IMG/VR virus record: IMGVR_UViG_3300020576_001396
Span: 1-64,000 of that record
Length of the DNA stretch: 64,000 nt
Source of the DNA: a virus
Taxonomy: Duplodnaviria > Heunggongvirae > Uroviricota > Caudoviricetes
Direction: 5' to 3' (one strand)
Below, one piece after another: positions 16,700-18,058 of this stretch; the stretch's first letter is position 1; every line of letters starts with the position of its first letter. Both the position numbers and the translations under genes were made by a program. The notes under the pieces were generated by a model. That model had not been told where the DNA came from. It ran no database searches and was given only the letters and a program-made list of their open reading frames with translations.

Positions 16700-18058
16700 A
16701 TACATGAGAAGATAACCAGGCATATGTGATTGCAATGTCACACTATAACCTTTCGAACGTTAATCAAAAAACTAAAGAAGGGAGTATGGGGTACGATGAT
16801 GCTTGTCATTACGTATAGCCATAGCCTGTCACTTAGAGTTATCCAGCCATATAGGATAATGAAAGACTTTCATACATGTAATCTCAACTGCCATATTTAA
16901 GAGGTTGTTGTGTAGTGGCTTGCCAGACACAATGAAGGGACTTATAATGGCGACGCGTACTTGCTGCGTCTAATAAATACAGAATAAAGAAGCAAACGAC
17001 AGGGACATTCTAATTCCCTACAAGAGATGTTTACTCTTCTATTACAAATGGATTTTATTTGTAACGGATTGGTTTTAGCAATTAATACCTAACGCTAATC
17101 GTACATGAGTAATCACAAGGCCTTGTATATAGACTGCAAGAGGCACCTGAGCCGATATTTCGGCACCCTATGTAGCATCAAGGATAATCATCTATCATGC
17201 GGAGAATTCCCCTCTAATTGAATCGAAAGCGAATGTTAAACAGGAGTATCGACTGAGTCCGTCCAAAGGACTCTTTTTAATAGCCACTTGGTTACTTGTT
17301 AAGGATACTTCGAGTAAAGTGTTAAAACCTGCTTATTGTTGTACATGCGAGTTTAGGTACAAAGCTGTACAAGGTTGAGCCTATAGTATTATCTTCGGAT
17401 ATTCTGGTTACTACATACTAGGTGGACTGTCAGAGCCATAAGTATGGAAGCGATTCAAAGACAATAAGAAGAAACATCCTACCTAATATCATGGATACTA
17501 TGTATATTAATAGCCTCGCTATTTGTGCCCTTTATGTCTCTTCACAATTGTATGTGGACTTGATGTTTAGGAAAGGTAGAGCAATAAATGTACACTAGTG
17601 GACAAAGTGGTCCCATCGTAAATGGGATGCTTAACGATAGAGCTACGCATGCCTCTTGTTTTGACTGAGAGAGGCTAGTAAGAGGTTCGAATCCCGCCAT
17701 TAAGAGAATTAAGTATATATTATTGATGGTATTAGAAAACGACTAAGCGAAGGGTGTAGGCATCGGCCCGTAACGTCGTGGGTAATTTGTGAGCTTGCTT
17801 CATATTACTGAACATACAGGACTTATCGAGAGATAAACGTAAATTGAATAAACTATCAAAGGTTTAATTTGTACACAAGGTTGTATTGAATATGTGGAAT
17901 AGGCACCTGATAAAGGATTAACACCTACCACACAGAAAGAACATTAAAAACGGCGGTTAAAGTTCGTTACCAGTATTCCTTTTTCGCTTCATAGCGGTGT
18001 CTTAGACATGTAAGGTTGCTCGTTATCCGAGCTTTAGCCCTTACCGTTTATTTATATC
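16700..18058 (+). ncRNA. ORF-free 1.35-kb segment rich in hairpins. It is a candidate large structured non-coding RNA, or two shorter ones. Strand and ends are uncertain.
   Basis: No ORF of 60 aa or more in any frame. Stems include GACGC/GCGTC, CCGA-tatt-TCGG, TATC-UUCG-GATA and CCCAT-cgtaa-ATGGG. An internal terminator at 17255 suggests a break point. Confidence 0.3.
17255..17279 (+). terminator. Rho-independent terminator inside the non-coding segment
   Basis: GAGTCC-gtccaaa-GGACTC followed by TTTTT. Confidence 0.5.

What the first reader, a model, noticed from the sequence alone, without database searches (positions are those of the whole stretch)
16700..18058. A 1.35-kb ORF-free, hairpin-dense segment is a candidate large structured ncRNA
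No ORF of 60 aa or more occurs in any frame, in a genome that is otherwise gene-dense. The segment holds many exact stems, including GACGC-gtacttgct-GCGTC, CCGA-tatt-TCGG, a UUCG tetraloop hairpin TATC-UUCG-GATA, CCCAT-cgtaa-ATGGG and GCCTCT...GAGAGGC. An internal intrinsic terminator sits at 17255-17279, and the region includes a GGTTCGAATCC T-loop-like element. Large ncRNAs such as GOLLD, ROOL and HEARO are typically phage-borne and lie near tRNA clusters like this one.
Basis: seen in the sequence. Interest (0 to 1): 0.7.

Follow-up and report, generated by a model that had tools for sequence, protein, structure and literature searches.

The report
Giant structured RNA in crAss-like phages
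The gene-free stretch encodes a previously undescribed, roughly 1,400-nucleotide, intricately folded non-coding RNA with a built-in tRNA look-alike, conserved in a rare group of phages distantly related to crAss phages, which makes it about as long as a small-subunit ribosomal RNA and larger than the giant phage RNAs described so far.

Summary
Window 16684-18052 (+) has no ORF of 60 aa or more and cannot be rescued by stop-codon recoding. The same 1.3-1.5 kb gene-free segment sits in the same place in every related contig I could fetch: 11 full-length lineages, 53-63% nucleotide identity.

On their alignment a 273-pair consensus fold is 89% paired, against 37-43% for slid controls. It has 165 pairs with compensatory changes, against 47-64 for slid controls (0/500 shuffles). 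G:U pairs outnumber A:C 262 to 95, so the RNA is read from the + strand. At least three covariation-supported pseudoknots and a 13-bp long-range helix tie the domains together.

One domain is a tRNA-Tyr-like module: D, anticodon-like, variable and T arms, with the canonical GGUUCGAAUCC T-loop and a poor acceptor stem.

No Rfam 15 family matches (GOLLD, ROOL, HEARO, OLE, introns, rRNA, RNase P, tmRNA). There is no relative in INPHARED, IMG/VR or GTDB genomes, and no description in the searchable literature.

The "internal terminator" is a conserved hairpin whose U-tract is not conserved. The RNA abuts coding sequence on both sides, so it is probably co-transcribed and processed. Its function is unknown. 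My best guess is a trans-acting folded particle that engages tRNA or translation machinery.

The parts
16684..18052 (+). Whole structured RNA: 1,369 nt here and 1,294-1,523 nt in relatives.
   Evidence: nhmmer with the profile of the 11-lineage alignment hits only this place in the window (16684-18050). The consensus fold has 273 pairs and is 89.1% paired. G:U versus A:C is 262 versus 95, which gives the + strand.
16686..16889 (+). 5' domain, closed by helix 16686-91:16884-89. It contains hairpins 16725-30:16738-42 (loop GCAAUU), 16749-54:16778-83 and 16838-44:16854-60 (loop AGCCAYAUA).
   Evidence: helices 1-8. The closing helix is 98% paired with 3 covarying pairs. Helix 8 has 7 of 7 pairs covarying.
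16952..16970 (+).
   Evidence: helix 1: 100% paired, with G-C/A-U exchanges at two pairs.
16980..17003 (+). Highly conserved strand CAGAAUAAAGAAGCAMACGACAGG. It supplies the 5' halves of two pseudoknot helices: 16980-83 pairs with 17403-06, and 16998-17003 pairs with 17295-17300.
   Evidence: Both helices are 100% paired in 11 lineages, with 4 of 4 and 4 of 6 pairs covarying. They cross helices 17334-40:17460-66 and 17243-50:17304-11.
17026..17192 (+). Domain 2. Helices 17032-36:17107-11, 17038-44:17061-68, 17075-82:17092-98, 17132-38:17171-76 and 17151-54:17161-64.
   Evidence: helices 14-23. Helix 15 is 100% paired with 4 covarying pairs. Helix 16 has 10 of 11 pairs covarying.
17243..17311 (+). 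Helix 17243-50:17304-11, enclosing the conserved hairpin 17255-17273 (loop GUCCAAA).
   Evidence: helix 25: 96.6% paired with 5 covarying pairs. The hairpin stems differ between lineages while the loop is conserved. The T-run after the hairpin is absent in L005, L009, L018, L025, L027 and L029.
17312..17331 (+). Near-invariant block UAAAGUGUUAAAACC; most of it is unpaired in the model.
   Evidence: invariant columns T632-C646.
17332..17468 (+). Domain 3, closed by the 9-bp helix 17332-40:17460-68. Its interior loop segment 17403-06 forms a pseudoknot with 16980-83. It contains the window-specific UUCG hairpin 17390-17401.
   Evidence: helix 30: 8 of 9 pairs covary, 93.7% paired.
17478..17760 (+). 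Domain 4. The 13-bp long-range helix 17483-95:17723-35 is enclosed by pseudoknot helix 17478-82:17756-60. The inner closing helix is 17515-17:17704-06.
   Evidence: helix 37: 11 of 13 pairs covary, 91.6% paired. helix 4: 100% paired; the inner closing helix is 100% paired, with four pair types at its first pair.
17584..17705 (+). tRNA-Tyr-like module.
- D arm: 17593-96:17606-09, loop with GG.
- Anticodon-like arm: 17611-15:17623-27, with the 7-nt loop UCGUAAA.
- Variable-arm hairpin: 17629-32:17640-43.
- Lineage-variable inserted hairpin: 17651-75.
- Split T stem: 17647-48 plus 17683-85 pairing with 17693-97.
- T-loop: UUCGAAU, 17686-92.
   Evidence: The Rfam tRNA model scores 16.3 bits here and 19.3 bits at the homologous site of L027. 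ARAGORN at a relaxed threshold calls tRNA-Tyr(GUA) in L009 and L022.
17739..17779 (+). Hairpin 17739-44:17774-79, with inner helix 17752-55:17766-69. Its loop (GUAGG) pairs with 17478-82.
   Evidence: helices 47-48, helix 4.
17823..17866 (+). Two conserved hairpins. 17823-27:17832-36 is capped by a GNRA tetraloop (GAGA here, GAAA in most relatives). The other is 17849-54:17861-66.
   Evidence: helices 49-50: 5 of 5 and 5 of 6 pairs covary.
17948..18049 (+). 3' domain, closed by 17948-53:18044-49 and 17955-67:18027-39. It includes the conserved strands AACGGCGGUUAAAG and GCGGUGUCUUAGACA.
   Evidence: helices 51-54: 87-94% paired.
15885..16469 (+). Conserved upstream neighbour, a family of about 170 aa. 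The model shows a long helical hairpin plus a small beta domain. In most lineages its stop codon overlaps the first nucleotides of the RNA.
16469..16684 (+). Lineage-specific 71-aa ORF inserted between the conserved upstream gene and the RNA. Its stop codon (16682-84) overlaps the RNA 5' end.
   Evidence: It has no homologue among the ORFs that precede the RNA in the other lineages.
18059..18529 (+). Conserved downstream neighbour, a family of about 155 aa. It starts 9-15 nt after the RNA in most lineages.

Best explanation
Window 16684-18052 (+) encodes a member of a new family of very large, highly ordered ("ornate") non-coding RNAs, 1.3-1.5 kb long. The family is carried by a rare clade of uncultivated phages distantly related to crAss-like phages.

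**Shown**

- The segment is non-coding.
- It is conserved in sequence and in position.
- It folds, on the + strand, into at least five domains closed by long-range helices and locked by at least three pseudoknots.
- One domain is a tRNA-Tyr-like cloverleaf with a canonical T-loop and a D-loop GG. Its anticodon-like loop is YCGUAAN, with C in place of U33. Its acceptor stem is degenerate.

**Inferred from anatomy**

- There is no room for a promoter or terminator, because the RNA is flush against coding sequence on both sides. It is therefore made as part of the long + strand transcript that also carries the phage tRNAs.
- It is then either cut out or persists as a nuclease-resistant folded core.

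**Proposed, not shown**

- It acts in trans during infection as a stable folded particle, alone or with the two tightly linked flanking proteins.
- Its tRNA-like elbow docks onto, or decoys, a host factor that recognises tRNA. Candidates are the ribosome, RNase P, a synthetase or modification enzyme, or an anticodon nuclease that targets GUN anticodons.
- This would be analogous in kind to the phage-borne giant RNAs GOLLD and ROOL. Their function is also unknown, but they are found beside or around tRNAs.
For: **Non-coding**

- longest ORF 58 aa.
- no rescue by recoding.
- the longest ORFs fall at different places and strands in each lineage, and only 410 of 2,588 pairwise gaps are multiples of 3.

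**Conserved in place**

- In every fetched contig that reaches upstream of a homologue of the downstream gene, a 1.2-1.6 kb gene-free gap lies upstream of that gene, with one extra small ORF between them in the L005 lineage.
- A profile of the RNA matches each of those gaps.

**Structure**

- 89.1% of 2,962 cells are paired, against 37-43% when slid. 165 pairs have changes on both sides, against 47-64 when slid. 0 of 500 shuffles reach the observed value on any measure.
- pseudoknot helices are 100% paired. 10 helices have 4 or more covarying pairs, against 0-1 in row-permutation nulls.

**Strand**

- G:U 262 versus A:C 95.
- z = -1.83 on the + strand and +0.38 on the - strand.

**tRNA-like module**.

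**Structural-RNA hallmarks**: CUUG tetraloops about 10-fold enriched and GAAA about 5-fold enriched over shuffles.

**Context**

- tRNA genes lie at 6463, 10856, 12043 and 19875 on the same strand.
- GOLLD and ROOL are phage-borne, lie near tRNA islands, and GOLLD sometimes has tRNAs inside it (PMC12286853).
Against: - No expression data of any kind are available. The transcript ends are inferred only from where conservation stops.
- No independent promoter or terminator was found. A cis role within the polycistronic mRNA therefore cannot be excluded.
- The acceptor-like stem of the tRNA module is only 65% paired, and two of its positions never pair. Recognition by enzymes that need an acceptor end is doubtful.
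- No conserved palindromic loops that would point to homo-oligomer kissing contacts were found.
- Only 11 full-length lineages could be fetched, so individual short helices, and the roughly 60% of nucleotides still unpaired in the model, are provisional.
- The functional proposal rests on analogy.
Confidence: 0.7

Rival explanations
1. RNA scaffold of a phage ribonucleoprotein. The RNA works only as a complex with the two proteins whose genes always flank it (the families of about 170 aa and about 155 aa), and possibly with the three further proteins of about 140 aa downstream. This is compatible with, and partly overlaps, the best explanation.
For: - The cassette is strictly conserved: the 170-aa gene, the RNA, then the 155-aa gene, across all lineages.
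- Both proteins are well conserved (49-76% identity; 33 and 24 clusters). Neither has a known family or fold beyond a generic helical hairpin.
- OLE RNA is a precedent for a large bacterial RNA that works with dedicated proteins (PMC9723947, title and abstract as listed).
Against: - Gene order is conserved over the whole region, not only around the RNA, so adjacency is weak evidence.
- Small lineage-specific ORFs are inserted between the RNA and either protein gene in some lineages (window 16469-16684; L005 7735-8004; L025 2141-2557).
- Neither protein shows a recognisable RNA-binding fold.
Confidence: 0.3
2. Giant cis-acting leader or processing platform. The folded segment stays part of the polycistronic mRNA. 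It controls translation, stability or cleavage of the downstream gene block, whose first start codon lies 9-15 nt after the last helix.
For: - No terminator separates the RNA from the next ORF, and no promoter precedes the RNA.
- An ORF always starts within about 10-15 nt of the 3' closing helix, even where a different ORF is inserted, as in L005.
- Genes here lack Shine-Dalgarno sequences (2 of 33), so initiation could be sensitive to nearby structure.
Against: - About 1.4 kb with at least 50 helices, pseudoknots and long invariant single-stranded blocks far exceeds any known bacterial leader.
- The start codon and spacer are not drawn into the conserved structure.
- In a genome this tightly packed, every element is flush against an ORF, so the abutment is not informative.
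Confidence: 0.12
3. Self-splicing intron or other mobile ribozyme (group I or group II-like) interrupting a gene.
For: The size and structural complexity are in the range of group II introns. The segment is flush against ORFs on both sides.
Against: - No Rfam intron model matches even at E <= 10.
- There is no reverse transcriptase or homing-endonuclease ORF.
- The flanking ORFs are separate, complete, independently conserved proteins with their own stop and start codons.
- Extra ORFs are inserted between the RNA and its neighbours in some lineages.
- It is single-copy and fixed in position in all lineages, with no empty site observed.
Confidence: 0.03
4. DNA-level element (replication origin, packaging site or regulatory region), or a decaying remnant of a tRNA array or gene with no RNA function.
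For: It is an ORF-free region in a tRNA-rich part of the genome, and it contains one tRNA-derived module.
Against: - Compensatory changes preserve helices whose strands lie up to 420 nt apart, and they preserve pseudoknots.
- The excess of G:U over A:C is strand-specific.
- There are no iterons, no inverted repeats of 12 nt or more, and no skew inflection.
- 30% of positions are at least 90% conserved across lineages whose flanking proteins are only 45-75% identical. That is not what decay looks like.
Confidence: 0.03

Closest known systems
[quoted passage not shown]
   Same: - It is encoded by phages and prophages, among or beside tRNA genes.
- tRNAs are sometimes embedded in the molecule.
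- It is very large, with many covarying helices and pseudoknots.
- No protein partner or function is known (PMC12286853).

This RNA shares the phage origin, the tRNA-rich setting, an embedded tRNA-like unit and the ornate multi-pseudoknot fold.
   Different: - It does not match the Rfam GOLLD model at any threshold tried.
- It is about 1.3-1.5 kb, against about 800 nt.
- Conserved blocks are spread over the whole length rather than concentrated in a conserved 3' half.
- The embedded unit is a degenerate tRNA mimic that is part of the fold, not a functional tRNA in a linker.
- The host phage is crAss-like, with a probable Bacteroidota host.
- Multimerisation is untested.
ROOL RNA (rumen-originating, ornate, large)
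   Same: It is a phage or prophage RNA near tRNA islands, with a complex pseudoknotted fold, no known protein partner and unknown function.
   Different: It is roughly 2.5 times longer than ROOL (about 580 nt, from my own knowledge). The Rfam ROOL model gives no match. There is no detectable sequence or architectural correspondence.
tmRNA and viral tRNA-like structures
   Same: In each, a tRNA-shaped module (T arm with the canonical T-loop, D-loop partner) is embedded in a much larger RNA that does something other than decode.
   Different: - ARAGORN finds no tmRNA, even at a relaxed threshold, and there is no Rfam tmRNA hit.
- There is no 3' CCA-type acceptor end. The acceptor-like stem is internal and poorly paired.
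- No tag-peptide reading frame is evident.
- The module has a full anticodon-like arm and a class-II-type variable arm, which tmRNA lacks.
OLE RNA
   Same: It is a large (about 600 nt) ornate bacterial RNA with long invariant stretches, and it works with dedicated proteins encoded nearby.
   Different: OLE is chromosomal and found in Gram-positive extremophiles. It is membrane-associated and less than half the size. There is no Rfam match here.

Membership tests
GOLLD RNA | Match to the curated Rfam covariance model at its gathering score | tested here: not met
   There is no hit at gathering over the whole window. There is none at E <= 10 on the segment or on two homologues.
GOLLD RNA | Phage- or prophage-borne, near or around tRNA genes | tested here: met
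   Phage replication genes are and a crAss-like PolA. Four tRNA or tRNA-like genes lie on the same strand within 11 kb. A tRNA-like module lies inside the RNA.
GOLLD RNA | [quoted passage not shown] | tested here: not met
   The length is 1,294-1,523 nt. Invariant blocks are distributed from the 5' end to the 3' end.
GOLLD / ROOL | Assembly into homo-oligomeric RNA-only cages | not testable with these tools
   I looked only for a proxy, hairpin loops that stay palindromic while varying, and found nothing convincing.
ROOL RNA | Match to the curated Rfam covariance model | tested here: not met
   no hit.
HEARO, OLE, RNase P, tmRNA, group I/II introns, SSU/LSU rRNA | Match to the respective Rfam models | tested here: not met
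   No hit at E <= 10. In addition, nhmmer --max of the family profile against E. coli 16S and 23S found nothing, and colinear k-mer chains were at shuffle level. ARAGORN in tmRNA mode found nothing.
tRNA (for the module 17584-17705) | Score at or above the Rfam tRNA gathering score (29 bits), or a call by ARAGORN at default settings | tested here: not met
   16.3 bits in the window and 19.3 bits in L027. ARAGORN at default settings made no call in 11 lineages. At a relaxed threshold it calls tRNA-Tyr(GUA) in L009 and L022.
tRNA (for the module 17584-17705) | D, anticodon, variable and T arms maintained by covariation; T-loop UUCRAAU; D-loop GG | tested here: met
   - Anticodon-like arm: 100% paired, 4 of 5 pairs covary.
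- Variable-arm hairpin: 100% paired.
- D stem: 3 bp, with 2 covarying pairs.
- T stem: GG/CC invariant, plus a split outer GC/GC with one compensatory U-A.
- GGUUCGAAUCC is kept in 9 of 11 lineages, with variants in L009 and L022.
tRNA (for the module 17584-17705) | 7-bp acceptor stem with a free 3' end, and U33 in a 7-nt anticodon loop | tested here: not met
   The acceptor-like stem is 64.9% paired and two positions never pair. It is internal to a larger helix system. Position 33 is C in all lineages.
Intrinsic terminator (17255-17279) | G+C-rich hairpin followed by a U-tract, conserved among relatives | tested here: not met
   The hairpin is conserved, with compensatory stems and a conserved GUCCAAA loop. 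A run of 4 or more U follows only in the window and L001.

The most novel reading that the evidence does not exclude
This is a categorically new RNA machine of ribosomal-RNA size. One possibility is a self-assembling RNA particle or cage. Another is a ribozyme or RNP. In either case its tRNA-Tyr-shaped domain would capture, mimic or decoy tRNA-recognising host factors to reprogramme translation or defeat a defence. A possible target is anticodon nucleases or modification enzymes that read G34-U35 anticodon loops. It would be the largest structured non-ribosomal RNA class known from bacteria or their viruses.
Probability: 0.3. Interest if true: 0.92.

Novelty: new variant of a known kind. Interest (0 to 1): 0.8.

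Why it matters
Very few classes of large, highly ordered non-coding RNA are known in bacteria and phages (rRNAs, RNase P, tmRNA, group I/II introns, OLE, GOLLD, ROOL, raiA). Each has been informative about what RNA can do.

This family would be roughly twice the size of GOLLD. It is supported by unusually clean covariation, including pseudoknots. It carries a domesticated tRNA-like domain, which gives a concrete experimental handle on function.

It comes from a lineage related to crAss-like phages, whose biology is poorly understood. It is also absent from the phage and virus collections that earlier RNA-motif surveys mined. The IMG/VR survey in PMC10690425 reported only 29-151 nt candidates.

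Its size and rigidity make it an attractive target for cryo-EM, and a test case for whether cage or multimer formation is general among giant phage RNAs.

Tried and rejected
1. **Recoded protein gene.** Rejected. All three stop codons are abundant in all six frames.

2. **Divergent 16S-like rRNA.** The length and a few short colinear look-alike motifs, such as GUUAAAAC, GCCCGU and GGUU.AAGUCC, suggested this. It is rejected. No Rfam rRNA hit was found. nhmmer --max against E. coli 16S and 23S found nothing. k-mer chains were no better than shuffles.

3. **Upstream promoter plus hairpin motif (ACCCGUU..AACGAA.UAAGAUAUU).** Rejected. It is the conserved C-terminal coding sequence (...DPLKNELRY-stop) of the 170-aa gene. 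It is not repeated elsewhere.

4. **Sigma-70-like promoter at 16920-16948 (11 of 12 match).** It lies in a lineage-variable hairpin, and the number of such sites is below the shuffle expectation.

5. **Relatives in IMG/VR.** Two flanking proteins, a profile of the 829-aa protein and two DNA patterns all found none.

6. **Relatives in GTDB genomes.** Two hits were found, and both are short chance matches.

7. **Relatives in JGI metagenome contigs by a strict 22-mer.** Five hits: one a contig already held, one a further partial copy of the L005 lineage (L011), and three chance matches.

8. **INPHARED blastn with the window segment and with the family consensus.** Nothing, or 40-nt chance hits.

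9. **Fold searches for both flanking proteins.** Uninformative.

10. **Palindromic kissing-loop signature.** None convincing.

11. **Sigma-70-like gene seen upstream in L001/L002.** It is not homologous to the window's upstream gene and is not part of the conserved cassette.

12. **One 2026 preprint on language-model mining of non-coding elements.** It appeared in a search but could not be opened. Prior description there cannot be excluded.
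Full report
**1. The observation**

Window 16685-18058 has no ORF of 60 aa or more. The longest is 58 aa. Each of the six frames contains 26-32 stop codons of all three kinds, and reassigning any one stop never opens more than 127 codons. It is therefore not a recoded gene.

G+C is 0.39-0.40 in the segment, against 0.30-0.35 in the flanks. The first 1,000 nt fold better than shuffles on the + strand (z = -1.83) but not on the - strand (z = +0.38). There are no tandem or inverted repeats of note.

**2. 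Known families**

cmscan against Rfam 15 finds only four tRNAs in the window at gathering thresholds. In the segment it finds nothing better than a sub-threshold tRNA match at E <= 10. Two homologues give the same result. GOLLD, ROOL, HEARO, OLE, RNase P, tmRNA, introns and rRNAs are therefore excluded as families.

**3. Relatives**

The window DNA has no match in 50,697 phage records, nor does the family consensus. IMG/VR holds no relative by three protein queries and two DNA patterns. GTDB species genomes gave two chance hits.

The large protein collection does hold homologues of the downstream gene 18059-18529. There were 11 clusters with the single sequence and 24 with a profile. Wherever a fetched contig reaches far enough upstream, a 1.2-1.6 kb stretch without called genes lies upstream of that gene, with one extra small ORF in between in the L005 lineage. 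A profile HMM of the segment matches each of these stretches over its full length.

This gave 11 distinct full-length lineages, 1,294-1,523 nt long and 53-63% identical to one another, plus several partial ones.

**4. It is a structured RNA**

The alignment (A3) alternates invariant blocks with variable hairpins. Examples of the invariant blocks are GAAUAAAGAAGCAMACGACAGG, UAAAGUGUUAAAACC, GAAACAUCC, GCAAUAAAUGUA, AACGGCGG and GCGGUGU.

An RNAalifold consensus has 273 pairs in 54 helices. Counted with the pair-count tool:

- 89.1% of 2,962 cells form standard pairs, against 37-43% when the 3' partners are slid by 1-3 columns.
- 165 pairs carry changes on both sides, against 47-64 when slid.
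- None of 500 shuffles reaches the observed value on any measure.

A thermodynamics-free search for stacked covarying column pairs found 10 helices with four or more compensatory pairs. Row-permuted controls gave 0-1.

Wobble pairs show the transcribed strand. There are 262 G:U/U:G cells against 95 A:C/C:A cells. The RNA is therefore the + strand, the same strand as the neighbouring genes.

The segment evolves as non-coding sequence. Gap lengths fall 410/1401/777 for length mod 3 = 0/1/2. The longest ORFs lie at different positions and strands in each lineage.

**5. Architecture (window coordinates)**

- A 5' domain is closed by 16686-91:16884-89.
- A hairpin sits at 16952-70.
- A conserved strand at 16980-17003 forms two long-range helices, 16980-83:17403-06 and 16998-17003:17295-17300. 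Both are 100% paired in all lineages and have 4 covarying pairs each.
- These two helices cross 17334-40:17460-66 and 17243-50:17304-11 respectively, so they are pseudoknots.
- Domain 2 spans 17026-17192.
- Helix 17243-50:17304-11 encloses the hairpin 17255-73.
- Domain 3 is closed by a 9-bp helix, 17332-40:17460-68, in which 8 of 9 pairs covary.
- Domain 4 is closed by a 13-bp helix, 17483-95:17723-35, in which 11 of 13 pairs covary. It is bracketed by a third pseudoknot, 17478-82:17756-60.
- Hairpins lie at 17739-79, 17823-36 (GNRA-capped) and 17849-66.
- A 3' domain is closed by 17948-67:18027-49.

CUUG tetraloops (G-CUUG-C) cap many variable helices and are about 10-fold enriched over shuffles. 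GAAA loops are about 5-fold enriched.

About 30% of positions are at least 90% conserved, and half of those lie in unpaired regions. That is typical of RNAs with tertiary structure or binding surfaces. Much of the variable sequence is still unpaired in the model because the alignment there is unreliable, so the model is a lower bound.

**6. The tRNA-like module**

The Rfam tRNA model aligns 17584-17705 end to end (16.3 bits; gathering score 29). It aligns the homologous part of L027 at 19.3 bits. ARAGORN at a relaxed threshold calls tRNA-Tyr(GUA) in L009 and L022.

- Anticodon-like arm: 100% paired, 4 of 5 pairs covary. Its 7-nt loop is YCGUAAN, that is C33-G34-U35-A36-A37.
- Class-II-like variable-arm hairpin: 100% paired.
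- D stem: 3 bp, with 2 covarying pairs and a GG in the loop.
- T arm: the stem is split by a lineage-variable inserted hairpin. The insertion is absent in L009 and L018, where a perfect 5-bp T stem is seen. The outer G-C/C-G pairs include one compensatory U-A.
- T-loop: canonical (GGUUCGAAUCC).
- Acceptor-like stem: poor, 65% paired, with two positions that never pair. It is internal and overlaps a fully covarying closing helix, 17515-17:17704-06.

The module is thus a domesticated tRNA-shaped domain, not a tRNA gene.

**7. The "terminator"**

The hairpin 17255-73 is conserved, with different stems and a conserved GUCCAAA loop. The following T-run exists only in the window and L001. It is a structural hairpin, not a conserved terminator.

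**8. Genomic setting**

The window carries ribonucleotide reductase, a family-A DNA polymerase, a DnaB-like helicase, a primase and an exonuclease. It also carries two giant - strand ORFs of 4,255 and 1,555 aa with no family assignment. The polymerase's best matches are crAss-like phages at 28-29% identity. Only 2 of 33 genes have a Shine-Dalgarno-like motif, as in phages of Bacteroidota.

The RNA sits in a conserved cassette, in this order:

- a protein of about 420 aa;
- a protein of about 170 aa;
- the RNA;
- a protein of about 155 aa;
- three proteins of about 140 aa.

In most lineages the stop codon of the 170-aa gene overlaps the first nucleotides of the RNA. The next ORF starts 9-15 nt after the last helix. 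In the window a lineage-specific 71-aa ORF is inserted upstream, and it ends at exactly the same point.

What looked like a conserved upstream hairpin and -10 box is the conserved C-terminal coding sequence of the 170-aa gene. No conserved promoter or terminator is present. I therefore infer co-transcription with the surrounding + strand genes and tRNAs (6463, 10856, 12043, 19875), followed by processing or persistence of the folded core.

Both flanking proteins lack Pfam, PHROG and PDB relatives. Their models give, respectively, only generic helical-hairpin matches (pLDDT 79) and no significant match (pLDDT 83).

**9. Explanation**

Shown: this is a conserved, + strand, multi-domain, pseudoknotted RNA of 1.3-1.5 kb with a tRNA-like domain.

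Inferred: it is produced from the polycistronic transcript.

Proposed: it acts in trans as a folded particle, alone or with the flanking proteins, that uses its tRNA-like elbow to engage tRNA or translation machinery. The nearest analogues are GOLLD and ROOL. These are phage-borne giant RNAs next to tRNA islands. GOLLD sometimes has tRNAs inside it and is reported to bind ribosomes, and both form cages of unknown function (PMC12286853).

Rivals are an obligate RNP scaffold, a giant cis-acting leader, an intron, and a DNA-level element or decaying remnant. They are weighed in the rival section. The last two are essentially excluded.

**10. Novelty**

No Rfam family matches, no relative is present in any annotated phage collection, and none of six full-text literature searches found a description. 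The large IMG/VR survey of phage RNA motifs reported only 29-151 nt candidates, and this clade is absent from IMG/VR.

One recent preprint that might be relevant could not be read.

I class the RNA as a new variant of the known kind "giant ornate phage RNAs". It is a new family, about twice the size of the largest known one, with an integrated tRNA mimic, in a crAss-related lineage.

Noticed in passing
window 12043-12130 (+): An unusual tRNA-like gene. The Rfam tRNA model scores 45.8 bits, but ARAGORN does not call it. The acceptor, D and T arms look normal. The anticodon arm, however, is extended to about 13 bp with a 5-nt loop (GAAUA), which is 17 extra nucleotides where the anticodon loop should be. 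It may be a second non-decoding tRNA mimic, or a tRNA with a short insertion.
   Followed up: partly
window 47510-60277 (-) and 42839-47506 (-): Two giant ORFs of 4,255 and 1,555 aa with no convincing PHROG family. They are followed by ORFs of 731 and 494 aa on the same strand. The layout resembles the virion-RNA-polymerase and tail block of crAss-like phages, but this was not tested.
   Followed up: partly
[not shown]
   Followed up: yes
window, 33 + strand gene starts between 5549 and 41501: Only 2 of 33 genes have a Shine-Dalgarno-like motif upstream. Together with a family-A polymerase closest to crAss-like phages (28-29% identity), this points to a Bacteroidota-type host.
   Followed up: partly
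L001 1576-2145 and L002 725-1306: Two related lineages carry a sigma-70-like gene (Pfam Sigma70_r2 and r4) a few genes upstream of the RNA. The window has no homologue at that position.
   Followed up: partly
window 16801-16815, 16916-16925, 17792-17800 and equivalents in relatives: Variable helices of the RNA are very often capped by G-CUUG-C tetraloops. Each RNA has 1-4 copies of GCUUGC, about 10-fold over shuffles.
   Followed up: yes
window 17135-17150 and 17895-17910: A 16-nt direct repeat lies inside the RNA (TGCAAGAGGCACCTGA and TGGAATAGGCACCTGA, 88% identical). The second copy lies in a lineage-variable region. Its significance is unknown.
   Followed up: no
window 8564-10156 (+): A second stretch without ORFs of 90 aa or more. 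It is filled by a run of small ORFs (54-75 aa), not by another large non-coding element.
   Followed up: partly
L005 7735-8004; L025 2141-2557; window 16469-16684: Small lineage-specific ORFs have been inserted exactly at the RNA's 5' or 3' boundary in different lineages, without disturbing the RNA. This suggests the boundaries are hotspots for gene insertion.
   Followed up: no
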